Shown here one piece after another: positions 5,264 through 17,298 of a stretch of DNA of 64,000 nucleotides. The notes beneath the pieces are model-generated. The model saw only the letters and a list, made by a program, of their open reading frames with translations. It ran no database searches and was not told where the DNA came from. This DNA comes from Candidatus Levybacteria bacterium RIFCSPHIGHO2_01_FULL_36_15b (lineage in GTDB: Bacteria > Patescibacteriota > Microgenomatia > Levybacterales > UBA12049). The position numbers were made by a program, and so were the translations under genes. The stretch is from the NCBI GenBank assembly GCA_001782045.1, contig MFNK01000009.1, forward strand, positions 7,516 to 71,515, read 5' to 3'. Every line of letters begins with the position of its first letter. The stretch's first letter is position 1.

Positions 5264-5339
5264 CCTCGATACATCGCAATTAGGCAGAACAATTTACTCT
5301 GCAAGCGAGTATCTGGGCCGAGCTTATTTGAAAATTTAT

Positions 5340-6071
5340 ATGCATGATTTAACAGCAAGGCAGGTTGAGATCTTAAAAAGCTTAATAGAGGAATACATAG
5401 AAACAGCAGAGCCAGTTGGTTCTGAGACTTTGGAGAAAAAGCATAATTTAAGCGCATCTCCGGCAACAATAAGAAATGAAATGGTGCGCTTGACAGAGTT
5501 GGGATATTTAAAAAAACCGCATATTTCGGCAGGAAGAATTCCAACTCCGGAAGGAATGAAGTTCTATGTAAAGCAGCTGATGAAGGAAAAAGAACTTTCA
5601 GTTGCAGAAGAAGTTTCATTAAAAGAAAAAGTATGGGATTTAAGAGAAAAGGAAAAAGATTTTTTAAGAGAGCTTACTAAAGCTTTAGCGGAAAGAACTA
5701 ATGCATTGGCTGTTACAACGACAAACGACGGAGATTTATTTTGTGCAGGATATGCAAATTTATTAGATTCACCGGAGTTTTTCGATATTGATGTAACTAA
5801 AAATTTACTTTCTGCAATTGATGAAATAAATTATTTTCAAGGTTTGTTTGAAGGACAAGAGGACGATGACGATACACATATATTACTTGGAGAAGAACTT
5901 GGTCCTAAATTAAACGGACCGTACGGTTTTGTTTACAGAAAGTATACAACTCCGGCAAGATTAAAAGGAGAAGTTGGAGTATTAGGTCCGGCGAGGCTAA
6001 ATTACAATCTTGTTGTCCCAACGGTTAGATATTTCGGAAATTTAATAGAGGAAATAGCAAAAGGCTGGTAA
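5340..6071 (+). CDS. hrcA: heat-inducible transcription repressor HrcA (short, ~243 aa)
   Basis: N-terminal wHTH (LTARQVEILKSLIEEYIETAEPVGSETL...SPATIRNEMVRLTELGYL) aligns with HrcA N-termini. The ORF track starts at a TTG (5328); ATG 5340 (MHDLTARQ) fits HrcA N-termini better. Confidence 0.8.
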   Translation: MHDLTARQVEILKSLIEEYIETAEPVGSETLEKKHNLSASPATIRNEMVRLTELGYLKKPHISAGRIPTPEGMKFYVKQLMKEKELSVAEEVSLKEKVWDLREKEKDFLRELTKALAERTNALAVTTTNDGDLFCAGYANLLDSPEFFDIDVTKNLLSAIDEINYFQGLFEGQEDDDDTHILLGEELGPKLNGPYGFVYRKYTTPARLKGEVGVLGPARLNYNLVVPTVRYFGNLIEEIAKGW

Positions 6072-6512
6072 ATGTTCGCAATGAAAAAAAAACATGAAGA
6101 TAAAAATGAAAATCATAGACAGAACCTTGAAAACCAACTAAAAAGAGCGGTAGCGGACTATCAGAATCTTGAAAAAAGGATAGCTATGGAAAAGGCGGAT
6201 TGGATAAGGCTATCTAACAAAGATTTACTTTTAAGACTGCTGCCTGGTCTTGACAGTTTAATTTTGGCACAAAAACATACTCAAGATGAAGGAGTAAAAA
6301 TTGCCATAAAGCATTTTTTAGAAATTCTTGAGCAAGAGGGAGTCAAAAAAATAGAAACAGAAGGAAAGGATTTTGACCCTAATCTGATGGAAGTAGTAGC
6401 AACGCGAGAAGGAGATGCAGGAAAAGTGCTAGAAGAAACAAGAACGGGATATGCGCTGGGTGATAAAGTATTAAGACCCGCTCAAGTAATAGTTGGGGGG
6501 CAAGAAAATTAA
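6072..6512 (+). CDS. grpE: nucleotide exchange factor GrpE
   Basis: 146 aa; coiled-coil N-terminus and GrpE C-terminal region; sits between hrcA and dnaK. Confidence 0.8.
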
Positions 6513-6514
6513 AT

Positions 6515-8422
6515 ATGGGAAAAATAATAGGAATTGATTTAGGTACAACGAATTCGGCTGTAGCCGTAATGGAAGGCGGAAGTCCGAAAATTATACATTC
6601 TGCAGAAGGAAGGAATGTTATTCCCTCTGTGGTTGACCCTGTATCTCATATAGTGGGCGATGTCGCAAAAAGACAGATGGTTTTAAAACCCAAGACCACA
6701 ATTTTTTCGATAAAAAGATTAATGGGAAAGAAATTTACCGACGAGTCAGTGCAATTTGATATGAAGTGGCTTCCATATACGATAAAAAGCGGCCGAGACG
6801 GGATGGCAGTAGTTGAGGTAGAAGGAAGAACTTTCACACCTCAGGAAATTTCTGCGAAAATTTTGCAAAAGATTAAAGCCGATGCTGAAGCCTATCTAGG
6901 AAGCAAGGTATCGCAAGCAGTTATAACGGTACCTGCATATTTTGACGATAGTCAGAGACAGGCAACAAAACAAGCAGGAGAAATAGCAGGACTTGAAGTA
7001 CTTAGGATCATAAATGAACCCACTGCAGCTTCACTAGCTTATGGATTGGACAAGAAAAATGCTCATACAATTGCAGTCTACGATTTAGGCGGAGGGACTT
7101 TTGACATTTCTATTCTTGAACTTGGAGAAGGAGTTTACGAAGTAAAATCTACGAATGGCGATACTCATTTAGGAGGAGACGATTTTGATCAGGTAATTGT
7201 AGATTACCTTGCTGAGGAATTTAAAAAAGAAAACGGAGTTGATTTAAAAAAAGACCCGCAAGCACTGCAAAGATTAAGAGAATCTGCAGAAAAAGCAAAA
7301 ATTGAGCTTTCAAGTTCAGCTGAAGCACAAATTAATCAGCCATTTATAACACAAGGAAGTGCCGGACCGCTTCATTTAACAGTTACATTAACAAGAGCAA
7401 AGCTAGAGCAGATAGTTGATCCGCTTATTCAAAAATCCATAAAGCCTGTTGAGCTTGCCTTAAAAGATGCCAAAGTTAAGGTAACAGACATAGATGAAAT
7501 AGTTTTAGTGGGTGGAATGACTAGAATGCCAAAAGTAGTTGAAGCTGTAACTAAGTTTTTCGGAAAAGAGCCAAACAAAAGTGTCAATCCCGATGAAGTT
7601 GTAGCTGTAGGAGCCGCAGTACAGGCAGGAGTTTTAGGTGGAGAGGTAAAAGACGTGTTGCTTTTAGACGTTACGCCTCTTACCCTTGGAATCGAAACTT
7701 TGGGAGCCGTATCAACACCATTAATCGAGCGAAATACAACAATACCTTCTTCTAAATCTCAAGTTTTCTCGACTGCGGCAGACAATCAAACCCAAGTTGA
7801 AATAAATGTTTTACAGGGAGAGCGTCCAATGGCAGCAGATAATAAATCATTAGGAAGATTTATATTAGATGGAATTCCGCCATCTCCTAGAGGAGTTCCT
7901 CAAATAGAAGTTACATTTGATATTGATGCGAATGGAATATTACATGTTAAAGCACAGGATAAGGCTACTGGAAAAGAACAAAGTATTAAAATAGAAGGTT
8001 CAACCGGCCTAACTAAAGAAGAAGTTGAAAAAATGACCAAAGAGGCCGAAGCTCATGCGACAGAGGATGCAGAAAAAAAATCAAAAGTTGAGGCAAGAAA
8101 TCAGGCAGACTCTTTGATATTTACAGCCGAAAAAACACTAAAAGACGCAGGAGACAAAGTTGCAGAAGATAGCAAAAAAGAAATAGAAGAAAAAATTGCA
8201 GCCTTAAAGGGAATATTAGATAGCGGATCGAAGGAGGATTTGGAGATTAAATCAAAAGAACTTTCAGACGCTTTGCAAAAAGTTGGAGAAGCTATGTATA
8301 AAAAGCAAGAAGATCAAGCACAACAGCCTCAAGCAGAAGAGACTCAAGGTGAACCAGGTGCGGAAGAACAGCCTCAAAAAGACAAAAAGGACGAGCCGGT
8401 AGAGGGTGAAGTTGTTAACTAA
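6515..8422 (+). CDS. dnaK: molecular chaperone DnaK (Hsp70)
   Basis: Hsp70 signatures ([26 protein letters not shown]). 635 aa with acidic C-terminus. Confidence 0.95.
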
Positions 8423-8486
8423 TTTTAAAGGAAAATATTTAAAAACAAGCGCGGATAACGCGCTTTTATAATATAATAGAGAAATT

Positions 8487-9371
8487 ATGGCAGCAAAAGA
8501 TTACTATTCAATTCTAGGAATTTCTAAAAATGCCACAGAAACTGAAATAAAAAAAGCTTATAGAAAGCTTGCGTTAGAATATCATCCGGATAGAAATAAA
8601 AGCAAAGAAGCCGAGGGTAAGTTTAAGGAGATAACAAAAGCGTACGAAGTTTTGTCCGACTCTCAAAAAAGAAAAACCTACGACCAGTTTGGAGAGGCAG
8701 CTTTTGAGCAAGGAGGACCAGGAGCAGGGGGTCCGTTTGGTGGGTTCGGTGGATTTTCGGGGCAACAGGGTCCATTCACTTATACATATACAACATCAGG
8801 GGATGGAGCCGGTTTTGATTTCGGAGGTTTTTCCGACCCTTTTGAAATTTTTGAACAATTTTTCGGAGGGGCAAATCCTTTCGGGCAAAGAGCGCAACAG
8901 AGACCCGTATACTCGCTCAATATTTCCTTTATGGAAGCAGTAAAGGGAACGACAAAAAGAGTAAATATGGGGGGAAGAACTCAAACCATAAAAATTCCCG
9001 CAGGTGTTGACACCGGATCAAGAATTAGATTTGGAGACTCAGATATAATTATGGAGGTTGAGCCGCACTCCAAATTTAAAAGGCAGGGATACGATGTAGT
9101 TTCGGAAGAAGATCTTTCTTTTCCTAAAGCTGCTTTGGGAACAAATTTAGATGTAGAAACTATAGAAGGAAATGTAAAAATTAAAATTCCTGCCGGCACA
9201 CAACCGGATACGCTTATTAGGCTTCGAGGAAAAGGCGTTTCACATCTTGCAGGAAGCGGAAAAGGCGATCATTATGTAAGAATCAGGATCCTAATTCCCA
9301 AAAATTTAACCTCCAAACAGAAAGAATTACTTAAAGAATTCGATGGCGAGAAAAAATCAGGCTGGTTTTAA
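8487..9371 (+). CDS. dnaJ: DnaJ-family co-chaperone lacking the Cys-rich zinc-finger domain (CbpA/type II-like)
   Basis: J domain with HPD motif (YHPDRN), G/F-rich linker, C-terminal substrate-binding domains. No CxxCxGxG repeats. Confidence 0.75.
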
Positions 9372-9430
9372 ATCCCTCAAATCGTCCTATAGTTGAAAAA
9401 ACACCATGAAAATGCTAATATTTACGTCTC

Positions 9431-12142
9431 ATGAAAGAAAAACAACAGGAATCAAGATCCTTATCGAAAAGTGTTCAGGGATATCTTACTGATTCAGAAA
9501 GAACGGTTTTAAGACCACACCAACTTACCGTTTTTGAAGATATACGAAAATTTTTTGAGGAGGGAAACAAAAGAGGATATGTTAGCTTACCTACTGGAAC
9601 AGGAAAGACTGTTCTTTTTGTGGAACTATCTAAAGCTTTATTAGACGTCCAGCCAGAACAAAAAAAACCAAAAATATTAGTCGTAACTCCATCTAAGGAT
9701 TTGGTTCATCAAACAATGGGCAAAAGTGGAGAAAGAGGATATGGTAAATTTGCCCCGGAATTAGGCGTTGGATCATATTTCAGTGATACTCCTAGCTCAG
9801 AAAAAACAGAAGCAGGTTTTTTAGACAATGACGTAGTAATTACTACTTATGATTCTTTTGCAATCTTAACTAATGCAACTGAATATGAATATACCCCAAT
9901 TGAACATGTAAAAATACCTCGCGTAAAAATACCTCGCGTAAAAATAGAACACATAGAAATACCAGAAGAAGATTTAAAAAATCATGGTAAAGGACAATTT
10001 AGTGATGGGGTAATAAATTCTGAAATCTATAAAAGAATGGTAGAGGTATTTGGAGAGGAAGGAACAATAAAAGCAGTTTCCAAATGGAAAGAATACCCGG
10101 TTCTTAACCAAGAACTATTCGAAACAGAATACTATAAAAGAATATTAGCCCTTTATGGAGAGAAAGAAGCATTAAAAAGAATTAAAATCTGGCAATCATA
10201 TCCAAAGGGAGATGATTTCTTAAATTCAACAATCTTTAAAAAAATAGAGGCTCTTTATGGAGAGAAAGAAGCCTTGAAAATTATTAAACAGTGGCAGTCC
10301 TACCCCATTGTTGATGAAAAACTATTTGAATCCAAATTTTATAAGAAAACAGTTGAGTTCATTGGGGTAGAGAAAGCAAGGAAAACAATTTCGAGCTTGG
10401 AGAAATATCCCCTATCTGCGAAAAAATTATTTGAATCAGACTTTTACAAAAGAATAGTTTCTCTTTTTGGAAAAAAAGGAGCCCTTGAAATGATTAGGCA
10501 ATGGCAATCTTTGGTAAATATTGAGCAAGTAATATTTGAACCCGAGTTCCACAAAAAAACAATTTCATTTATTGCTGAAAAAGAAGCTCTAAATAAATTG
10601 AGATTTTGGAGATCTTACCCAATAATTAATGATTTGCTTGAATCCGATACTTATAAGAAATGGTTAATTTTCTATGGGGAGAAAGATTTGATGAAATCAG
10701 TTAGGACAAAAAAATCGTTTCCTGTAATAACAGATAGGAAACTAATCGATAATTTCGACATTTTTGTTTTGGATGAAGCGCATCATGTTTTTGGTCAGGC
10801 AATAGCAGATTTGGTACAAAGCATCCCAGAAGACAAGTTAGTAATTGGTTTTACAGCAACTCCCGAAGCAAACAGGTTTAAAAAATTACAGAAATATCTT
10901 CCGTATGAAATCCATAATTTAGGAATAACAGAGGCAATAAGCCTAGATCTACTGGCGCCAATGTTACCAGTAGCGTTAAAAAGTGGGCTAAGAATAGATG
11001 GATCCGATATTTACGATGAGAGAGGTGAATACATAGATACCAAAATCTCATATTTAGCTCATGATGAAAAAAGAAACAAAATAGTGGTAGAGGCTACTAA
11101 GGCCATGTCGTCTTTGGGTAAGGGAATAATAATATCTTGCATTGCAGGGGGAGAAGCATGGCATGCAAAATATTTAGCAGAAAAGCTGAAAGAAGAAGGT
11201 ATAAAAGCGGAGGCTATTTATTCAGAAGTTCCGGCTAAAACCAGACAAGAAATATACGACAAATTTAATAGAGGAGAAATAAATGCTCTAACATTTATAG
11301 GAGTAATTGGTGAGGGATGGGATAGTGAAAGAGCAAAAGTAATTATAAATGCAAGGCCCACAAGATCTGATATTTTTGCAAAGCAGAGACTGGGAAGAAT
11401 AACAAGGCGCAATGGAGAATTGGCAGTAGCAATAGATATTCAAGATGATTTTGACCCTAAAAATCCTCCGGTAACAGTTGCAGACGCATTAGAGGTAGGA
11501 AAAGTGAGTTTTGGGACAATTATTGGGACAAACACAGATGTAAAAGAAGGGGAGATTTTGTCTTTACTTAAAAATAATACTCCGATTGAAGAGCAAGTTA
11601 AAGCTCCTTTTTCAGAATTCAAAAACCAGCTAGCAACGCTTCCTCAGTTAAAAAGAGGTTTTGTTTTGTCAGAAAGAGGCTTCCCAGAATATGCAATTGC
11701 TACAAGAGTAAACGGCCAGTATAGAGGCTTGACCACTGAATTTTTAGATAAAGTAGGAGAAGTAAATAATATTGAGATAAATAAACGAACTGCAGCTATG
11801 GATAGATCAACAAGAGAGGTATACAGTATTGATCAAACCAGAAGACTTTTGGCTTCTCTCCCAAGGGTAGAACCAAGTAAGTACTACATAGATAGTAAAA
11901 ACAACAAATGGATTTCAATAAAAGGCTTACAAGCTCTTTTTAGTCGAAGGTTTACAAATTTAAGTGAGGGACGTTTGGTAAAAATAACAACTGACATTCA
12001 GGATGAATTATCATGGATACCAGCAGTATATGAAATTAATAATCGAGGAAGCAGATTATTTTTTGCAATAAAATTATTCAGTGCCACACCCGAGGCTATC
12101 AGAAAAATAACGGAAGCGATAGAAAAGTCCTATAATAATTGA
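9431..12142 (+). CDS. SF2 DEAH-box helicase (type III restriction res-subunit-like core) with seven tandem ~36-aa repeats inserted in RecA domain 1 and a ~250-aa C-terminal extension
   Basis: Motif I LPTGTGKT, Ia VVTPSKDLVHQT, II VLDEAHHV, III FTATP, V TFIGVIGEGWDSE, VI QRLGRITRR. Seven repeats of the pattern F/Y-YKK-x5-G-x3-A-x3-I-x2-WQSYP fall between motifs Ia and II (nt ~10015-10750). Confidence 0.7.
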   Translation: MKEKQQESRSLSKSVQGYLTDSERTVLRPHQLTVFEDIRKFFEEGNKRGYVSLPTGTGKTVLFVELSKALLDVQPEQKKPKILVVTPSKDLVHQTMGKSGERGYGKFAPELGVGSYFSDTPSSEKTEAGFLDNDVVITTYDSFAILTNATEYEYTPIEHVKIPRVKIPRVKIEHIEIPEEDLKNHGKGQFSDGVINSEIYKRMVEVFGEEGTIKAVSKWKEYPVLNQELFETEYYKRILALYGEKEALKRIKIWQSYPKGDDFLNSTIFKKIEALYGEKEALKIIKQWQSYPIVDEKLFESKFYKKTVEFIGVEKARKTISSLEKYPLSAKKLFESDFYKRIVSLFGKKGALEMIRQWQSLVNIEQVIFEPEFHKKTISFIAEKEALNKLRFWRSYPIINDLLESDTYKKWLIFYGEKDLMKSVRTKKSFPVITDRKLIDNFDIFVLDEAHHVFGQAIADLVQSIPEDKLVIGFTATPEANRFKKLQKYLPYEIHNLGITEAISLDLLAPMLPVALKSGLRIDGSDIYDERGEYIDTKISYLAHDEKRNKIVVEATKAMSSLGKGIIISCIAGGEAWHAKYLAEKLKEEGIKAEAIYSEVPAKTRQEIYDKFNRGEINALTFIGVIGEGWDSERAKVIINARPTRSDIFAKQRLGRITRRNGELAVAIDIQDDFDPKNPPVTVADALEVGKVSFGTIIGTNTDVKEGEILSLLKNNTPIEEQVKAPFSEFKNQLATLPQLKRGFVLSERGFPEYAIATRVNGQYRGLTTEFLDKVGEVNNIEINKRTAAMDRSTREVYSIDQTRRLLASLPRVEPSKYYIDSKNNKWISIKGLQALFSRRFTNLSEGRLVKITTDIQDELSWIPAVYEINNRGSRLFFAIKLFSATPEAIRKITEAIEKSYNN
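9908..9952 (+). repeat. in-frame 15-bp perfect tandem duplication (GTAAAAATACCTCGC x2 plus a diverged third unit), encoding VKIPR-VKIPR-VKIEH
   Basis: Directly visible at 9908-9922 and 9923-9937, then GTAAAAATAGAACAC at 9938-9952. Confidence 0.9.
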
Positions 12143-12177
12143 CATTGTAAAAAATTAATGTATAATACTCTACCTAT

Positions 12178-13902
12178 ATGACGAAAGAAATAGAAAACTT
12201 AAAACAAATGTCAGCTCAGCGAGAGGTTTTTAGCTCTTTGGTTAACAAAAGAGAAAAACAATATAGTATGCTGGGTCAGCAGGTTAATCAAGAAAGTCTT
12301 GAAAAAGCTGTAAAAATAGGCGAAATAATGGATAGAACCCAAGCTCGACAACTGCGCATTGCAGAAAAAGTTGAATTACTTGATCAATCTATTTCCACGG
12401 AGTCAGAAAGAGTAGAAAGCCTTATCCAACGTCTTGAAGAATTGGGTTCAAGAAATCCCGCAATACATTCAGTATACGAAACATTTCGATCAGAATTTGA
12501 AGATTGGAATACTCCTCAAACAGCAAAACCAGAAGAAATAATACCACAACCGGTTGTTGAAGAGATCTCTGTTCCCGCAGTTCCTGAAGTTTCTGCTGGT
12601 TTTGAAGGACAAACAAGAATTGGTGGAAAAAAAGAAATATATGTGCTTCCAAATGGAACAGAACTTAAAACAACGCAAACAAGATTGCGAATTCTTCAAG
12701 CTCTTGAAAAAGGCCCTGCATCCATGGAGGAATTGGAGGAAGTTACGGGGAAAAATGCAGGATGGGTTTCTTCGACTATACATCAATTAGATAATCAACT
12801 GCAGCAATACAATTATAGAATACGTAATCTTAGCAGCGCAAAACAATTCGGCGCGAGGTATGTTCGGCAGTACGAGGGTGAAGAAGATATCACTCAAGGC
12901 GTGCAAGAGCATAGCGAAAAAGATTTAACAGAAGATAGCCATGCTGAGCAGGAGACTGAAGCGTCACTTGAATCAGGAGCTTTGCAAATTCCTCAGATTC
13001 CGGTGTTGAGACATATTGAATCTGCAAATCCACACAAATATGACGAAACTATTACCGTAAAATATGCCTTGGGACAAATTGAAAGCATAGCTCCTAATGA
13101 AAGAACAGAAGAAGAACAACAGCTAGTCAAAGATGCTGAATATCTAAAAAAATATACGCCATCAATCCGTTATCAGTCAATTTATACACAGGAGGAGATA
13201 CACGGTTTAGTCTTAAAATTAAAAACCCTGGAAGGTAAAAAAAGAGAAGATTTTGATGATGTAGAAGATAGAATAATAAATCACTTGATACAGATTGAAA
13301 AATCGACTTCTTCAAAATATGAATCTCCTAAAAAATCTACATCATGGGTTACTCTTAAAAATCGTGCATTTAGAGTAAGTAGATATCTCGCTGCAAAATA
13401 TGCACAGCGACAAGAACAAGCTGGTTATTTTATTAATCTGCATGATCCGCATCCAGAAACTCCTCCTCATGATTTATCAGCTATTTTTACTTTTGTTGCA
13501 TATGATCATGCAGTAAATACTATTGGAGCGAGAACTGTAGGCGTGACTGATCAACGATTTGCTAATTTCGAATCAAATTGCGAAGCAATAAATAAATGGT
13601 ATGAAGCTGCAAAACCATTCATTGACAAAATTCCAGGACATCTCAAGTTGCCAACAGGCTATGATGAACATCAGAGACAGGTTGGAGCCAGATGGTTTTT
13701 GTCTGATCTTGTGGCCACCATGAATATTAGGTTAAATGGAAATGGCCATAATAAATTCGAAGGTTTTGAGAAATATTATAGATATGATGTTGCAGGAGCG
13801 ATGGCTTTGCAATACAAAATTAAACATACAGTAGATGAAATAAATGAGATGTTGAAAAACATTACTACAGAAGAAATTGTTCCTCTCGAGCCCAATAGTT
13901 AA
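12178..13902 (+). CDS. hypothetical protein: coiled-coil N-terminus, possible wHTH segment (TRLRILQALEKGPASMEELEEVTG), unknown C-terminal domain
   Basis: 574 aa, no catalytic motif recognised. Follows the helicase after a 35-bp gap. Confidence 0.45.
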   Translation: MTKEIENLKQMSAQREVFSSLVNKREKQYSMLGQQVNQESLEKAVKIGEIMDRTQARQLRIAEKVELLDQSISTESERVESLIQRLEELGSRNPAIHSVYETFRSEFEDWNTPQTAKPEEIIPQPVVEEISVPAVPEVSAGFEGQTRIGGKKEIYVLPNGTELKTTQTRLRILQALEKGPASMEELEEVTGKNAGWVSSTIHQLDNQLQQYNYRIRNLSSAKQFGARYVRQYEGEEDITQGVQEHSEKDLTEDSHAEQETEASLESGALQIPQIPVLRHIESANPHKYDETITVKYALGQIESIAPNERTEEEQQLVKDAEYLKKYTPSIRYQSIYTQEEIHGLVLKLKTLEGKKREDFDDVEDRIINHLIQIEKSTSSKYESPKKSTSWVTLKNRAFRVSRYLAAKYAQRQEQAGYFINLHDPHPETPPHDLSAIFTFVAYDHAVNTIGARTVGVTDQRFANFESNCEAINKWYEAAKPFIDKIPGHLKLPTGYDEHQRQVGARWFLSDLVATMNIRLNGNGHNKFEGFEKYYRYDVAGAMALQYKIKHTVDEINEMLKNITTEEIVPLEPNS

Positions 13903-13945
13903 ATAGAAGTTTGTAATTTGAGCGCAATGTTTCTATACTTAAACT

Positions 13946-14272
13946 ATGTGGAGACTGCCCATTTATATACTTAAATTTTGGTACCTGGAAGCTCCGTTTT
14001 CGCTTGTAGGTTATTTTTTAAACCTCAACAAATCATTTTTTAATGCATTTTCTATGCTTCTTATGGTTAAAACGTTTTTTAAGCCTTGGAAAAATGAATA
14101 CAGGGAAGGTTTAGTAAAATTCTCCGTATTTATGGGAATTATTTTTAAGACTTTGTTTATTACTGCTGACGTATTTTTATTTGCAGTATTGTTGTTTTTT
14201 GAGCTTACATTCTTTATTGCATTTCTAGTATTTCCTATAGCAATATTTTATTTGCCGTTTATAAAATTATGA
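13946..14272 (+). CDS. hypothetical small membrane protein, translationally coupled (ATGA overlap) to the downstream Clp-like ATPase
   Basis: 108 aa, 3 TM helices. Stop TGA overlaps the ATG of the next gene at 14269-14272. Confidence 0.4.
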   Translation: MWRLPIYILKFWYLEAPFSLVGYFLNLNKSFFNAFSMLLMVKTFFKPWKNEYREGLVKFSVFMGIIFKTLFITADVFLFAVLLFFELTFFIAFLVFPIAIFYLPFIKL

Positions 14273-16635
14273 GAATATTAGCCAAATTTTACCATTGGTA
14301 TACTAATTTATTAACAGAAGTAACAAGAATTTTACTCTTTATTCTTCTTATAGGCTTAGTCGTTTTAAGTTATGTATATAAAATTTACCCGAATATTTTT
14401 ATTACTCTATTTGGGTTATTTATTATGTTTGAAGTCTATTTTTACCAGAAAATTGTAAAACATACTCCAAAGACTACAGTTTCCAACAATACGGGAAGTA
14501 TTTTTGATTCTTTTATAATTGAATCTTTATCTGCCTTTGAGGCAAGTAACAGTTCTGAGCAGATAATTAGATATTTAGTTAAACTTCCTCAAATTAAATT
14601 TATTATTTCTAAGTGTTGCTCCAGTAATAAAAATGTTCCAATTATTCCGGTAGAAAAAGAGGAGTTGGCAAAATCCGCGTTTGAGCTTGCCAAGGTTTTA
14701 AACGCAAAATTTGTTACCACCATAGATATTTTTGGAGCATATTTGAAGCTAATTGAACCTAAAACAAAGTTTTTGTTTAACGAAAAACTAAAACAAGAAG
14801 ATCTGAATAATATTTTGCTTTGGGCATCAAATAATTTCGCAGGAGAAGAAGTAGATAAAAAGGCTCAAATCTCATTTGCAGGGGAAGGTATTGCAGAAGA
14901 CTGGATTTATGGTTGGACACTAGAGACTAAAAAGTACACGGTTGATTTGACAAAAGAATATGTAAATCAAGATGAGCCGGTAGTTAGATTAAACGAATAT
15001 AACCAGTTGACGGAAGCTTTGTATAAGGGATCAAGTGTTGTGTTAGTAGGGGATGTTGGAGCTGGCAAGGATTCAATAGTTAGATTCTTTGCAGTAGAGA
15101 GCTATATGGGAAGATTGTCGGGAAATTTATATCACCAAAGGGTTTATAGACTTATGGTCGATGCTTTAATGGGAGGAGCAAGCCAGCAAGGAGAACTTGA
15201 AGAAAGACTTAACTTAACCATGCAGGAGCTGACTCACAGTGGCAATGTAATAATTTATATTCCTGAATTTCAAAACCTATTGGGAGCACAGTCTTTTAAT
15301 TTAGATATTTCGGGGGCAATTTTGCCTTATCTGCAAAACAAAAATGTTAGAATCATAGCATCCGTTACTCCGAGTGCTTATAAAAAATATGTTGAGCCCA
15401 ATAAGACGCTTCTAGATACTTTAGAGATTATAAATTTCCCGCAAATAACACACGAAGAAATGCTCGATATTCTTTTTGCAAAAGTTTCTGAAATTGAAAT
15501 TCTAAATAACGTCTCATTTTCTTACCGAGCAGTTTTAACAGCAGCTAGATATTCAAAAAATTACTCTAATGAAAGAGTAGAGCCAGGGAGTGCCGTAGTA
15601 TTGCTTGAAGACAGTGCAAATTCGGTTCATATATCCGGAAAACAAATAGTTGAGGAGGAAGATATTCTTTCTCAAGTGAAGAAAAAAGTACATGTTGAAG
15701 TTGGAGAACCAAAGCCAGTTGAGAAGAAGCTCTTATTAAATTTGGAAAATGAAATTCACAAAAGAATTATAAATCAAGCGGAGGCTGTTTCGGCAATTTC
15801 GGAGGCTATTAGAAGATTAAGATCCGGTTTAAAAACCCCTACCAAGCCAATATCATTTCTCTTTTTAGGCCCAACTGGAGTTGGAAAGACAGAAACCGCA
15901 AAAGCTCTTGCAGAGATTTATTTCGAGGGAAAAGAAAGACTAATTAGACTTGATATGAGCGAATTTTCTGGTGTTGATGGAGAGAAAAGACTTTTGGGGG
16001 CACCACCAGGCGAGGGAGACGAAAAAGGACAGCTAACGGAAGCAATTTATGATAGTCCTTACTCACTAGTTTTACTCGATGAATTTGAAAAAGCAGATCA
16101 AACCATTCTGGATTTATTTTTACAAGTATTCGATGACGGAAGACTCACCGATAATAAGGGAAAAACCGTTTCTTTTGCAAATTCAATCATTATTTCAACT
16201 TCAAATGCTGCTTCAGAATTCATCCGAGAACAGATAGCAATGGGGGTAATAGTCGATAAAAATTTTAAGACAAAACTTATTGAATTTCTCGAAACTAAAG
16301 GTGTATTTAAGCCTGAACTATTAAATAGATTTGATGATATTATTGTTTTTAAACCACTTGGAAACCCTGAAATTATACAAATTGTAAAATTGCTTCTTAC
16401 AGATGTTACTAAAAACTTAAAAGAAAAAGATATAAATGTAATGTTTGAAGAACCCGTTATTGAAAAAATAGCAACCGAGGGATTTGATCGGGATTTTGGC
16501 GCAAGGCCACTTAAAAGATACATTCAGGATAATATCGAAGACCTAATCGCCCAAAAAATGTTAAAAGACGAAATAAAAAGAGGAGACAAAATAGTAGTTT
16601 CAGTAAGTCCTGAAGGAAAAATAGTCATAGGTTGA
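14269..16635 (+). CDS. membrane-anchored Clp/Hsp100-type double AAA+ ATPase (ClpC-like) with degenerate D1 and intact D2
   Basis: N-terminal TM helices, then a degenerate Clp_N-like segment (VTTIDIFGAYLKLIE). D1 has Walker A GDVGAGKDS and Walker B IIYIPEF, both non-canonical. D2 has GPTGVGKTETAKALA, LVLLDEFEKA, sensor-2 GARPLKRYIQ. Confidence 0.7.
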   Translation: MRILAKFYHWYTNLLTEVTRILLFILLIGLVVLSYVYKIYPNIFITLFGLFIMFEVYFYQKIVKHTPKTTVSNNTGSIFDSFIIESLSAFEASNSSEQIIRYLVKLPQIKFIISKCCSSNKNVPIIPVEKEELAKSAFELAKVLNAKFVTTIDIFGAYLKLIEPKTKFLFNEKLKQEDLNNILLWASNNFAGEEVDKKAQISFAGEGIAEDWIYGWTLETKKYTVDLTKEYVNQDEPVVRLNEYNQLTEALYKGSSVVLVGDVGAGKDSIVRFFAVESYMGRLSGNLYHQRVYRLMVDALMGGASQQGELEERLNLTMQELTHSGNVIIYIPEFQNLLGAQSFNLDISGAILPYLQNKNVRIIASVTPSAYKKYVEPNKTLLDTLEIINFPQITHEEMLDILFAKVSEIEILNNVSFSYRAVLTAARYSKNYSNERVEPGSAVVLLEDSANSVHISGKQIVEEEDILSQVKKKVHVEVGEPKPVEKKLLLNLENEIHKRIINQAEAVSAISEAIRRLRSGLKTPTKPISFLFLGPTGVGKTETAKALAEIYFEGKERLIRLDMSEFSGVDGEKRLLGAPPGEGDEKGQLTEAIYDSPYSLVLLDEFEKADQTILDLFLQVFDDGRLTDNKGKTVSFANSIIISTSNAASEFIREQIAMGVIVDKNFKTKLIEFLETKGVFKPELLNRFDDIIVFKPLGNPEIIQIVKLLLTDVTKNLKEKDINVMFEEPVIEKIATEGFDRDFGARPLKRYIQDNIEDLIAQKMLKDEIKRGDKIVVSVSPEGKIVIG

Positions 16636-16812
16636 CATATTTGTATTAATTTCTTATATTAAATCTAATATGAATAGCAGAGTTGACGTGTACAATAATT
16701 TCTCCCCACAAAAATCTCTTAGTTAAAACTAGGAGAGCCTCAAGTTTTTAGAAAACAACTAATAAGATTTTTAAGCCTCCTAGATAAATTTTTTTGAAAG
16801 GAGGTGATTAAA

Positions 16813-17298
16813 TTGAGTAAAGAAAGAGCTCTTAAAGGATTACAGAAAGACGACTTATATTACCGGTTCGTAACAAAAGTAATTGGTCTTGATGAATCTG
16901 CTTCAGTAAAAGATGTAGAGATTGCAAGTTCAAAATGGTTTTCTAATGCACTTAGAAATACAGCAATTAAAGCATTGGGTCTTTCTGTATCAGCGACAGA
17001 TGAAGAAATAGATAAGGCTCAAAAAACTCCGGAAGGAGGAAGATTAGTGCGGCGTGCAATGCTTGGAGGAATAACAGATGAAGAACTGACTATTTTTGAA
17101 AGAGATGACCCAATTCCATTTCCCTATTCAAAGTACATACCAAAAGAAAGTATATTTGCAAGCGAGGGAAGAAAAAATAAAAAACGAAAACGAAGAAGAA
17201 GATTACGAAAAAGAAAATGTTCGTCTTGTCGAAATGAATTCAAGAAAACAGGTATAAAGCCGGAAAAGTGCATACACAAAGGAATTAATTTGTCTTGA
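16813..17298 (+). CDS. hypothetical protein with poly-basic C-terminal tail and a possible zinc-ribbon
   Basis: ORF track starts at GTG 16804, inside the aaggagg SD. TTG 16813 has better SD spacing. C-terminus RKNKKRKRRRRLRKRKCSSC...KCIH. Confidence 0.4.
   Translation: MSKERALKGLQKDDLYYRFVTKVIGLDESASVKDVEIASSKWFSNALRNTAIKALGLSVSATDEEIDKAQKTPEGGRLVRRAMLGGITDEELTIFERDDPIPFPYSKYIPKESIFASEGRKNKKRKRRRRLRKRKCSSCRNEFKKTGIKPEKCIHKGINLS

What the first reader, a model, noticed from the sequence alone, without database searches (positions are those of the whole stretch)
9431..16635. Candidate novel four-gene module between dnaJ and nusA: repeat-bearing SF2 helicase + wHTH/coiled-coil protein + small membrane protein + membrane-anchored ClpC-like unfoldase
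The four genes are co-oriented and tightly spaced (gaps of 35 and 43 bp, then an ATGA overlap). They are wedged between two housekeeping operons.

The module pairs a DEAH helicase of the type-III-restriction-res / defence-helicase kind with a 574-aa protein that has a wHTH-like segment and no recognisable catalytic motif. These are followed by a translationally coupled pair: a 3-TM protein, then a transmembrane Clp/Hsp100 ATPase.

Helicase plus accessory protein plus AAA+ ATPase is a recurring logic of anti-phage systems, but I cannot map this onto any named system (Hachiman, Gabija, DISARM, Druantia etc.). A housekeeping role, such as membrane-protein quality control plus an RNA helicase, cannot be excluded from sequence alone.
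Basis: inference. Interest (0 to 1): 0.65.

Follow-up and report, generated by a model that had tools for sequence, protein, structure and literature searches.

The report
Two gene pairs, not one module
The supposed four-gene module is two unrelated gene pairs that happen to be neighbours in this one genome: a rare, movable helicase-plus-unknown-partner cassette, inserted beside a lineage-conserved membrane-anchored Clp-like ATPase pair that lacks the usual protein-threading residues.

Summary
The four ORFs, their spacing (35 bp, 43 bp, ATGA overlap) and their domain content are real. The four-gene module is not.

**Unit A, helicase plus 574-aa protein.** These two genes are adjacent in 12 of 12 informative loci from other Patescibacteria, always in different surroundings and never near a Clp gene.

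**Unit B, 108-aa membrane protein plus Clp-like ATPase.** In 9 of 9 Levybacteria relatives this pair sits at the same position: (dnaK-)dnaJ | p108-Clp | nusA-infB. The three closest relatives have dnaJ followed directly by p108, with no helicase.

The window therefore shows a 4.5-kb two-gene accessory cassette (about 9372-13930) inserted at a variable spot in a conserved housekeeping cluster.

Unit A is an intact ResIII-type SF2 helicase with a 7 x 35-aa repeat array. Its partner has a C-terminal domain that models confidently (pLDDT 92) but matches nothing in Pfam, PADLOC, PHROGs or PDB. Its function is unknown. A conflict or defence role is plausible but unproven.

Unit B is a divergent Hsp100. 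It has a TM hairpin, a dead D1 ring (Walker B P-E), no aromatic pore loops, no M-domain and no ClpP loop. In those respects it resembles Torsins.

The parts
9372..13930 (+). Inserted segment relative to cassette-free relatives. It runs from just after the dnaJ stop codon to just before the conserved TATACT..ATG of p108.
   Evidence: Junction comparison with L087. In L087, L178, L179 and L180, dnaJ is followed directly by p108.
9386..9421 (+). Promoter-like site upstream of the helicase (TTGAAA-17-TAATAT, with TG), carrying the motif CCTATAGTTGAAA.
   Evidence: The 11-mer CCTATAGTTGA occurs in only 4 independent places among the window and 177 loci. In each it lies within about 80 bp upstream of a cassette gene's start codon.
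9431..12142 (+). SF2 helicase of ResIII/DEAH type, 903 aa. Motifs I (PTGTGKT), II (DEAH), III (TATP) and VI (QRLGRITR) are conserved (invariant or >=90%) across the family.
9908..9946 (+). Perfect 15-bp x 2.6 tandem repeat encoding KIPRV-KIPRV.
10007..10735 (+). Array of seven ~35-aa repeats (consensus xLFESxxYKKxxxxxGEKxALKxIxxWxSYP) between the helicase motifs that precede motif II and motif II itself. Most family members have one unit; the closest homologue P0004 has several.
   Evidence: Mean pairwise identity is 33% at the amino-acid level and 54% at the DNA level.
11468..12142 (+). Family-specific C-terminal alpha/beta region of the helicase (aa 680-903).
   Evidence: AF2 model with pLDDT 92.0. 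No PDB fold match (best E 0.29). No tblastn match in phage or plasmid records.
12139..12166 (+). Perfect sigma-70 consensus (TTGACA-16-TATAAT) in the gap between the helicase and the partner gene, 12 nt before the partner's ATG.
   Evidence: Similar TTGACA...TATAAT-like sites lie upstream of the partner gene in L007, L009, L010, L090 and L092.
12178..13902 (+). Helicase partner protein, 574 aa. It has an N-terminal coiled-coil/possible wHTH region (aa 1-230, variable in the family) and a conserved C-terminal domain.
12676..12771 (+). Possible ArsR-type HTH (aa 167-198).
   Evidence: Pfam HTH_5, E 4.5e-4, 20.5 bits, below the cut-off of 22. Only 1 of 36 family members hits it.
12925..13902 (+). 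Conserved, mostly alpha-helical C-terminal domain of the partner (aa 250-574). This domain defines the family.
   Evidence: 72 relatives in 1.84 billion representatives. AF2 pLDDT 91.6, pTM 0.83. No fold match in PDB or BFVD. No Pfam, PADLOC, PHROGs or PDB-sequence match.
13911..13939 (+). Promoter-like site (TTGTAA-17-TATACT) upstream of p108. The TATACT element is also present in L087.
13946..14272 (+). p108, a small membrane protein, translationally coupled to the Clp-like gene by an ATGA overlap.
   Evidence: A homologue lies directly upstream of the Clp-like gene in 9 of 9 relatives.
14269..16635 (+). Membrane-anchored Hsp100/Clp-like ATPase, 788 aa. It has a TM hairpin at aa 21-57 (14329-14439), a degenerate D1 at about aa 221-483, and a canonical D2 plus D2-small at about aa 484-785.

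Best explanation
The region is a juxtaposition of two independent two-gene units.

**Unit A (9431-13902).** This is an accessory cassette that has been inserted between dnaJ and p108 in this Levybacteria genome only. It holds an ATPase-competent SF2 DNA-translocase-type helicase (ResIII/DEAH) and a partner protein. The partner's conserved C-terminal domain is mostly alpha-helical and has no known relative.
- Shown: the two genes travel together across Patescibacteria.
- Shown: the partner gene has its own strong promoter-like site.
- Shown: the cassette is patchily distributed and is absent from the closest relatives.
- Inferred: helicase and partner form a complex, with the partner acting as the specificity or regulatory subunit through its variable N-terminal coiled coil/HTH.
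- Inferred: the cassette serves a genetic-conflict role, meaning defence against or maintenance of mobile DNA (about 0.4), rather than core metabolism.

**Unit B (13946-16635).** This is a lineage-conserved pair fixed in the synteny dnaK operon | p108-Clp-like | nusA-infB.
- Shown: the ATPase has a TM hairpin.
- Shown: the D1 ring cannot be catalytic in the canonical way. Walker B is P-E in 116 of 116 members and the Walker A Thr is replaced by Glu/Asp.
- Shown: D2 is intact.
- Shown: there is no aromatic pore-loop residue in either ring, no M-domain and no ClpP-docking loop.
- Inferred: a membrane-tethered hexamer, driven by D2 alone, works with p108 on membrane or membrane-proximal clients by remodelling rather than canonical Tyr-paddle threading, independently of ClpP (about 0.5).
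For: **Split of the four genes.**
- Helicase and partner are adjacent in the window and in L007, L008-L014, L090, L092 and L093.
- An all-vs-all comparison of flanks finds only these two genes shared.
- Flanks differ between loci: tig, Mur ligase, secA, ftsAZ, ileS and others.
- Relatives of the Clp-like gene show hrcA-grpE-dnaK-dnaJ-[0-4 variable genes]-p108-Clp-like-nusA-infB-rpsO-pnp. The nearest relatives (76-82% identity) have dnaJ directly followed by p108.
- The junction sequences define the insertion.

**Unit A.**
- Motifs are conserved in the family alignment.
- About 45 clusters form the family in a 5.8-billion-protein database. The partner has 72 relatives in 1.84 billion representatives.
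- Helicase identities do not follow taxonomy.
- Accessory neighbours occur in some loci: a PIN gene, a recombinase fragment, a T4SS pilin gene, and a YafQ-like gene in the same hotspot in L176.

**Unit B.**
- Residue-level alignment to ClpB 1QVR and ClpC 3J3S.
- Column counts over 116 family members.
- More than 116 full-length relatives at 49% identity or above.
- Hydropathy analysis.
Against: - No biochemical or expression data exist for any of the four proteins.
- For Unit A, no effector domain (nuclease, toxin) is recognisable. PADLOC gives only partial helicase-core hits. Most neighbours elsewhere are housekeeping genes, so a defence role is not demonstrated.
- For Unit B, loss of pore-loop tyrosines does not prove loss of translocation. 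D1 keeps its Walker A lysine and may bind ATP.
- Co-transcription of all four genes in this genome cannot be excluded. No terminator-like site separates them.
Confidence: 0.8

Rival explanations
1. All four genes form one functional module, for example a defence system in which the helicase pair senses and the membrane Clp pair executes.
For: The four genes are co-oriented and tightly spaced, with no terminator-like site between them in this genome.
Against: - The four genes do not co-occur anywhere else. That is 0 of 11 helicase-pair loci and 0 of 9 Clp-pair loci.
- The Clp pair keeps its position in relatives that lack the cassette.
- Separate promoter-like sites precede the helicase, the partner gene and p108.
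Confidence: 0.04
2. The helicase+partner pair is an ordinary, lineage-specific DNA-repair, recombination or RNA-metabolism helicase with a cofactor. It would not be conflict-related, and its patchiness would reflect gene loss in reduced genomes.
For: - Flanks elsewhere are mostly housekeeping genes.
- GC content matches the host.
- There are weak NCBIfam similarities to RadD, XPB and Hef.
- No match was found in phage, plasmid or IMG/VR collections for the family-specific parts.
Against: - The pair is absent from the three closest relatives at the same locus.
- The families are very small for a repair function.
- Identities do not track taxonomy.
- The pair sits in a spot that holds unrelated accessory genes, including a YafQ-like toxin, in relatives.
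Confidence: 0.3
3. The helicase+partner pair is the remnant of, or cargo of, an integrated mobile element, serving as a replication or maintenance module.
For: - The helicase core scores best against the phage helicase family phrog_16 (E 8e-54).
- A serine-recombinase fragment lies directly upstream in L010.
- A T4SS pilin gene lies near the pair in L090.
- The pair shows presence/absence polymorphism.
Against: - In the window, no integrase, transposase or tRNA lies near the cassette, and the dnaJ and p108 junction sequences read show no repeat.
- The insert contains only the two genes.
- Viral contigs give only generic core matches at 30% identity or below, never extending into the C-terminal domain.
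- The partner family is absent from viral, phage and plasmid collections.
Confidence: 0.2
4. The 788-aa protein is a conventional ClpC/ClpB-type unfoldase or disaggregase that is simply membrane-tethered. It would carry out membrane-protein quality control with DnaK or ClpP.
For: - Public annotation calls it ClpC.
- D2 matches ClpB and ClpC strongly (E 1e-105 and 1e-101).
- The gene lies next to the dnaK operon.
Against: - Scores are far below the NCBIfam equivalog cut-offs (422 bits against 1232 for ClpB).
- The D1 Walker B Asp is replaced by Pro in 116 of 116 members.
- Both pore-loop tyrosines are absent.
- There is no M-domain, which ClpB needs for coupling to DnaK.
- There is no [LIV]-G-[FL] ClpP loop.
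- At least one genome (L175) also carries a canonical 860-aa ClpB/C.
Confidence: 0.25

Closest known systems
SauUSI-type type IV restriction helicase (PDB 7CLG) and related ResIII helicases (PADLOC mREase_IV, PbeA; DUF3427 proteins)
   Same: Both have an SF2 ResIII/DEAH motor. Sequence similarity runs from motif II to motif VI (E 1e-14 to 7CLG; E 1e-16/1e-17 to mREase_IV and PbeA). More distant database hits are PLD+DUF3427 helicases.
   Different: - The window helicase has no PLD or other nuclease domain and no SRA-like reader domain.
- It instead carries a 35-aa repeat array inside the first RecA-like domain and a family-specific C-terminal alpha/beta region.
- It has an obligate neighbour gene of unknown fold.
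- The matches cover the motor only.
Two-gene helicase+partner defence systems (for example Hachiman HamA/HamB). The resemblance is recalled from knowledge of the field and is a lead, not a test.
   Same: The gene logic is the same: one SF2 helicase plus one non-helicase partner, patchy distribution, and location in variable spots.
   Different: No PADLOC model of Hachiman, Gabija, DISARM, Druantia or similar systems matches either protein beyond generic helicase-core hits. The partner has no nuclease-like fold. It is mostly alpha-helical, with no PDB match.
ClpB / ClpC / ClpA (class I Hsp100; PDB 1QVR, 3J3S, 1KSF)
   Same: Both have a two-tier AAA+ architecture. The window protein has canonical D2 Walker A/B, the D2 NR and GARPL motifs (the positions of the ClpB arginine finger and sensor 2, assigned from general knowledge) and a D2-small domain.
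   Different: - It has an N-terminal TM hairpin.
- D1 Walker B is P-E and the Walker A Thr is replaced by Glu/Asp.
- Neither pore loop has a tyrosine: D1 reads AGAxxQGE and D2 reads GxxPG[EQ]G[DS]EKG.
- There is no M-domain and no ClpP-docking tripeptide.
- It has a conserved, translationally coupled small membrane partner.
Torsin ATPases with LAP1/LULL1 (eukaryotic ER/nuclear envelope)
   Same: Both are Clp/Hsp100-related AAA+ proteins that are membrane-associated, lack aromatic pore loops and operate with a membrane-protein partner (PMC5425593, read; window features).
   Different: - Torsins are single-ring proteins (general knowledge); they lack their own arginine finger, which the cofactor supplies.
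- The window protein keeps the NR and GARPL motifs that correspond to the D2 arginine finger and sensor 2.
- It has an extra, degenerate D1 ring.
- Its partner is a ~108-aa polytopic membrane protein, not an AAA-like fold.
- There is no evidence of common descent beyond the Hsp100 clade.

Membership tests
   0 of 11 other helicase-pair loci and 0 of 9 other Clp-pair loci contain the other pair.
Conserved two-gene helicase+partner cassette | The helicase and partner genes are adjacent and co-oriented in unrelated genomic contexts. | tested here: met
   12 of 12 informative loci show this. These two genes are the only ones shared between the loci.
SF2 helicase, ResIII/DEAH group | Motifs I, II, III and VI are present and conserved, and the Pfam ResIII and Helicase_C hits are above threshold. 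| tested here: met
   ResIII scores 83.5 bits against a cut-off of 22.5, and Helicase_C scores 50.8 against 23.5. PTGTGKT, DE, AT and QR.GR..R are invariant in A1; the His of DEAH and the Pro of TATP are at >=90%.
Type III / type IV restriction enzymes | A nuclease domain in the helicase polypeptide, or a cognate methyltransferase next door. | tested here: not met
   No nuclease or PLD domain was found in Pfam. The neighbour is the partner protein of unknown family, and no methyltransferase is present among the flanking genes scanned.
Named anti-phage systems in PADLOC-DB v2 | Near-full-length matches of the component proteins to a system's models. | tested here: not met
   The helicase gives only partial core hits (PbeA, mREase_IV, DinG, DpdF). 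The partner gives only DpdD at E 0.008, and p108 gives none.
Anti-phage defence (functional class) | Protection against phage or plasmid when expressed. | not testable with these tools
   Only indirect evidence is available: a patchy distribution, location in a variable hotspot, and occasional toxin, recombinase or T4SS neighbours.
ArsR-type winged HTH (Pfam HTH_5) | A score above Pfam's gathering threshold. | tested here: inconclusive
   The score is 20.5 bits against a cut-off of 22 (E 4.5e-4) at aa 167-198. Only 1 of 36 family members hits it.
ClpB (disaggregase) | M-domain coiled coil, active D1 and D2, pore-loop tyrosines, and a score above the NCBIfam equivalog cut-off. | tested here: not met
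   - The alignment to 1QVR leaves ClpB residues 419-521, between the two aligned domains, with no counterpart in the query; this is where the M-domain lies (general knowledge).
- D1 Walker B is P-E in 116 of 116 members, and neither pore loop has Tyr.
- TIGR03346 scores 422 bits against a cut-off of 1232.
ClpA/ClpC (ClpP-coupled unfoldases) | A ClpP-docking [LIV]-G-[FL] loop in D2, pore-loop tyrosines and a Clp_N domain. | tested here: not met
   - The loop position reads K-G-[VTA] in the family and MGV in the window. It has ClpB-like length, without the ClpC insertion.
- There is no Pfam Clp_N hit.
- TIGR02639 scores 366 bits against a cut-off of 993.
Clp/Hsp100 superfamily (broad) | An AAA_2-type D2 with a ClpB_D2-small domain, preceded by a D1 AAA module. 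| tested here: met
   AAA_2 E 8e-43, ClpB_D2-small E 1.5e-23 and AAA_lid_9. D1 aligns to ClpB residues 154-419.
Torsin-like (functional analogy only) | No aromatic pore loop, membrane association, and an arginine finger supplied in trans. | tested here: inconclusive
   The first two features are met. The third is not: the protein keeps the NR motif at the position corresponding to the D2 arginine finger, and GARPL. The Torsin features were taken from PMC5425593.

The most novel reading that the evidence does not exclude
Two uncharacterised systems lie side by side.

(1) The helicase plus novel-fold partner cassette is a new Patescibacteria-specific genome-conflict (anti-phage or anti-MGE) system. 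Its partner protein represents a fold with no solved relative.

(2) The p108/Clp-like pair is a bacterial counterpart of the Torsin principle. It would be a membrane-tethered Hsp100 derivative that has given up aromatic pore-loop threading and D1 catalysis, and that acts with a small membrane cofactor.

The probability given is for at least one of these two readings being correct in its functional sense.
Probability: 0.35. Interest if true: 0.65.

Novelty: new variant of a known kind. Interest (0 to 1): 0.4.

Why it matters
As a defence-system candidate, the four-gene module should be dropped. Treating it as a unit would mislead guilt-by-association annotation.

What remains is useful in three ways.

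- **A clean insertion example.** It shows an accessory cassette inserting into a variable spot inside a conserved housekeeping cluster of a reduced CPR genome, with cassette-free sibling genomes from the same aquifer.
- **A conserved helicase-partner pair.** The partner domain is confidently modelled but has no sequence or PDB fold relative. That makes it a tractable target for structure and function work, and for defence screens in a phylum where few systems are known.
- **A widespread, mis-annotated 'ClpC'.** This Levybacteria protein lacks every feature needed for ClpC or ClpB function as known: D1 catalysis, pore-loop tyrosines, the M-domain and the ClpP loop. It is also membrane-anchored with a coupled partner. 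It bears on how AAA+ machines work without aromatic paddles, a question so far studied mainly in Torsins.

Tried and rejected
- **First metagenome scan.** A narrower alignment (A4) gave only 5 loci. Of these, L091 and L094 were too short to be informative.
- **Partner family against other libraries.** A PDB sequence-profile search of the partner family hit only coiled-coil or low-complexity noise, such as huntingtin and stathmin. A Pfam scan of 36 family members found no shared family.
- **Catalytic folds for the partner.** I considered a HEPN (Rx4-6H), HD or tyrosine-recombinase-like catalytic site. I rejected all three. The conserved residues (H286, R356, E363, R385, W390, Y417, D423, R452, N467, R518, K532, Q545) do not follow those motif orders, and Foldseek found none of those well-populated folds.
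- **Distant helicase subfamily.** I looked for a conserved neighbour of the more distant subfamily (L015-L028, about 32% identity). No adjacent partner was found.
- **Other elements.** No canonical CIRCE element lies in the window at 3 mismatches or fewer. There is no Rfam family in 4-22 kb and no tRNA in the window. No DNA-level tandem repeat underlies the 35-aa array.
- **Mobile-element collections.** Viral, phage and plasmid searches found no relative of the partner or of the helicase C-terminal region.
- **Literature.** Three searches found no description of either family.


Full report
**1. Observation.** The window comes from Candidatus Levybacteria bacterium RIFCSPLOWO2_01_FULL_36, a member of the CPR/Patescibacteria from the Rifle aquifer.
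- 9431-12142, 903 aa
- 12178-13902, 574 aa
- 13946-14272, 108 aa
- 14269-16635, 788 aa

The gaps are 35 and 43 bp, and the ATGA overlap was read directly. Upstream lie hrcA, grpE, dnaK and dnaJ. Downstream lie a 164-aa ORF with no family, then nusA, infB, two unknown ORFs and pnp; public gene calls on the identical contig add rpsO before pnp. The domain calls also hold:
- The helicase hits ResIII, DEAD and Helicase_C.
- The 574-aa protein has only a sub-threshold HTH_5 hit.
- p108 has no family.
- The 788-aa protein has AAA_2 and ClpB_D2-small preceded by a weak D1.
- Hydropathy gives two N-terminal hydrophobic segments in the 788-aa protein (aa 21-57) and at least two in p108.

GC content is uniform across the region.

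**2. The four genes are not one module.** I tested co-occurrence from both sides.

*From the helicase side.*
- A word-index search found a family of about 45 clusters of ~680-aa helicases, alignable to the window protein through their C-terminal regions. They come mostly from Saccharibacteria and other Patescibacteria.
- A scan of one genome per GTDB species returned loci with 10-kb flanks.
- In all seven loci with helicases at 38% identity or above (L008-L014), a homologue of the 574-aa protein is the immediate neighbour. It lies downstream in six loci and upstream in one.
- The same holds for its only close relative, P0002 (L007). There the upstream fragment is a helicase C-terminus and the downstream gene is ychF, not a membrane protein.
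- It also holds for three metagenome loci found with the partner family as query (L090, L092, L093).
- An all-vs-all comparison of every ORF in these loci found only those two genes shared.
- Flanks include trigger factor, a Mur ligase, secA, recJ-adk-map-ftsA-ftsZ-nrdR and ileS.
- No Clp-like gene, p108, dnaJ or nusA was detected in any of them.

*From the Clp side.*
- The 788-aa protein has more than 116 full-length relatives at 49-82% identity.
- In nine relatives examined, p108 lies directly upstream in 9 of 9. It overlaps the Clp-like start or lies within 3 nt of it.
- nusA-infB follow in every contig long enough to show it.
- In 8 of 9, dnaJ (with dnaK wherever the sequence reaches) lies upstream of p108, separated from it by 0-4 unrelated genes.
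- The three closest relatives (76-82% identity) have dnaJ followed within about 15-40 bp by p108, with no helicase, no partner and no 164-aa ORF. One of them comes from the same Rifle project.

Aligning the junctions shows that the window carries an insertion from just after the dnaJ stop to just before a conserved TATACT..ATG of p108, at about 9372-13930.

**3. Unit A: helicase plus partner.**

*Helicase.*
- Motifs I, II (DEAH), III (TATP) and VI are conserved (invariant or >=90%) across the family, so it is presumably an active motor.
- Its LRPHQ...PTGTGKT...DEAH...TATP...GEGWDS...QRLGRITR pattern and its Pfam ResIII hit place it with restriction-type DNA translocases.
- The nearest solved relative is the motor of the type IV enzyme SauUSI (7CLG, E 1e-14).
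- PADLOC gives only partial core hits (PbeA, mREase_IV). PHROGs gives the generic phage helicase family phrog_16.
- No nuclease domain is present.

*Repeat array.*
- Between the helicase motifs that precede motif II and motif II itself, family members have one copy of a ~35-aa unit. The window protein has seven (aa 193-435; consensus xLFESxxYKKxxxxxGEKxALKxIxxWxSYP).
- The copies share 33% mean amino-acid identity and 54% DNA identity, so this is an old, diverged amplification. TRF detects no DNA repeat apart from a perfect 15-bp x 2.6 unit at 9908-9946.
- The closest homologue, P0004, has an intermediate number of units.

*Helicase C-terminal region.* The C-terminal 224 aa model confidently (pLDDT 92.0) as small alpha/beta modules, with no PDB fold match.

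*Partner protein.*
- Exhaustive HMMER found 72 relatives. They share only the C-terminal ~300 aa. The N-termini vary: they may be absent, coiled coil, or an internal duplication.
- That domain models at pLDDT 91.6 and pTM 0.83 as a mostly alpha-helical domain with one hairpin.
- It has no Foldseek match in PDB or BFVD (best E 0.17 and 0.05, TM at or below 0.25).
- It has no Pfam, PADLOC, PHROGs or PDB-sequence relative.
- Conserved residues are mainly basic or polar and match no catalytic motif I could recognise.

*Promoters.*
- A perfect sigma-70 consensus (TTGACA-16-TATAAT, 12139-12166) sits in the 35-bp gap before the partner gene. Comparable sites precede the partner gene in five other loci.
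- The 11-mer CCTATAGTTGA, which overlaps the -35 element, occurs in four independent places among the window and 177 loci. In each it lies within about 80 bp upstream of a cassette gene's start codon.

*Distribution.*
- The families are small.
- Helicase identities do not follow taxonomy. A Levyibacteriota copy is 48% identical to the window copy but 51-52% identical to Saccharibacteria copies.
- The cassette is missing from the closest relatives.
- The family-specific parts have no match in phage, plasmid or IMG/VR collections.
- Occasional neighbours are accessory genes: a PIN gene in L009, a serine-recombinase fragment in L010 and a T4SS pilin gene in L090. The same dnaJ|p108 spot holds a YafQ-like toxin gene in L176.

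**4. Unit B: p108 plus the Clp-like ATPase.** Alignment to T. thermophilus ClpB and B. subtilis ClpC, together with column counts over 116 family members, shows the following:
- D1 Walker A is G-[DE]-x-G-S-G-K-[ED]-S. The lysine is kept and the Thr is replaced.
- D1 Walker B is hhhh-P-E, with Pro invariant.
- The D1 pore loop is AGAxxQGE, in place of KYRGEFE.
- D2 Walker A and B are canonical and invariant. The NR and GARPL motifs, at the positions of the ClpB arginine finger and sensor 2 (assignment from general knowledge), are present.
- The D2 pore loop is G-[SA]-x-P-G-[EQ]-G-[DS]-E-K-G, two residues shorter than GAPPGYVGYEEGG and without any aromatic residue.
- There is no M-domain. ClpB residues 419-521, between the two aligned domains, have no counterpart in the query.
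- The ClpP-docking position reads K-G-[VTA], with ClpB-like loop length.

NCBIfam scores are a third of the equivalog cut-offs. One genome (L175) also has a canonical 860-aa ClpB/C nearby, so the family is a paralogue and not a replacement.

**5. Mechanism.**

*Shown:* the region contains two independent units; Unit A is an insertion and is polymorphic; Unit B keeps a fixed synteny; and the motif states are as listed above.

*Inferred for Unit A:*
- The helicase and partner act as a complex.
- The conserved C-terminal domain of the partner binds or regulates the motor.
- The partner's variable N-terminus provides oligomerisation and possibly DNA binding or autoregulation at the CCTATAGTTGACA promoter. 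In this genome the N-terminus is a coiled coil plus a possible HTH.
- I put about 0.4 on a conflict role (defence or MGE-related), 0.3 on an accessory repair or nucleic-acid-metabolism role, and the rest on unknown.

*Inferred for Unit B:*
- It is a hexamer tethered by a TM hairpin with both ends cytoplasmic. There are positive charges on both sides of the hairpin.
- D1 serves as a nucleotide-binding but non-catalytic assembly ring, and D2 is the only motor.
- It acts with p108 on membrane or membrane-proximal clients without canonical Tyr-paddle threading and without ClpP (about 0.5).
- The nearest functional analogy is Torsin with its membrane cofactors. Torsins are Hsp100-related, membrane-associated and lack aromatic pore loops (PMC5425593). 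The analogy is incomplete because this protein keeps the motif that corresponds to its own arginine finger.

**6. Novelty and score.**
- The four-gene module is not a real unit.
- Each half is a new variant of a known kind: an SF2 helicase with an uncharacterised obligate partner, and a strongly derived Hsp100.
- Neither family was found described in three literature searches.
- Interest is 0.4.

**7. Limits.**
- TM segments come from hydropathy only.
- Promoter calls are consensus matches, and their overall number is at chance level. Only their positions and the 12/12 match are notable.
- There are no expression or interaction data.

Noticed in passing
window 12139-12166: A perfect 12/12 sigma-70 consensus (TTGACA-16-TATAAT) lies between the helicase stop and the partner ATG, leaving a leader of about 10 nt or less. 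Similar sites precede partner genes in L007, L009, L010, L090 and L092.
   Followed up: partly
window 9386-9398; L007 313-323; L009 5449-5459; L090 5925-5935: The 11-mer CCTATAGTTGA, which overlaps a -35 element, occurs in only four independent places among the window and 177 loci. In each it lies within about 80 bp upstream of a cassette gene's start codon. It may be a cassette-specific promoter or operator. The loci that carry it have partner proteins with long N-terminal regions.
   Followed up: partly
window 16804-17298 (and 16632-16660): A 164-aa ORF with no family lies between the Clp-like gene and nusA. It is absent from all nine relatives. It is preceded by an 11/12 promoter-like site. 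This is a second variable spot: L175 has a PNPOx-like gene there and L176 a PQ-loop gene. It is not recognisable as rimP.
   Followed up: partly
window 13946-14272; L001-L006, L087, L178, L180: Public gene calls shorten p108 to 69-72 aa, or replace it with a spurious minus-strand ORF (L087, L178). Conservation from residue 1 supports the 108-aa form.
   Followed up: yes
between dnaJ and p108 in L088, L089, L176, L177: The dnaJ|p108 junction is a hotspot for unrelated accessory genes. L088 has a P-loop kinase-like 168-aa gene plus a 312-aa gene. L089 has a 261-aa gene. L176 has a 172-aa gene, a 71-aa gene and a YafQ-toxin-like gene. L177 has an EamA fragment plus an SdrD_B gene.
   Followed up: partly
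L175 2050-6596: One relative has a canonical 860-aa ClpB/ClpC (with Clp_N) and a cohesin-domain protein immediately upstream of p108/Clp-like, in place of the dnaK operon. The membrane Clp-like protein is therefore a paralogue that coexists with a normal Hsp100.
   Followed up: no
L033 2781-13819: Four tandem paralogous SF2 helicase genes (each about 700-980 aa, distantly related to the window helicase) lie in a Patescibacteria contig.
   Followed up: no
L009 7470-7922; L010 8595-9593 (-); L090 8454-9746: Accessory genes lie next to the cassette in other genomes: a PIN-domain protein, a serine-recombinase C-terminal fragment, and a T4SS-pilin-domain protein.
   Followed up: partly
alignment A3: P0095, P0097, P0100, P0102, P0103, P0125: Partner-family members of about 700-820 aa carry an extra N-terminal copy of the first half of the conserved domain (RT.EQ.QLLEDI...Y..VYTP.ELH.LV), which is an internal duplication.
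   Followed up: no
window 5328-9371; L089, L177: hrcA is present, but no canonical CIRCE element was found in the 64-kb window at 3 mismatches or fewer. In two relatives, a GATase+SIS gene (possibly glmS; name inferred from the two Pfam domains) is inserted between dnaK and dnaJ.
   Followed up: partly
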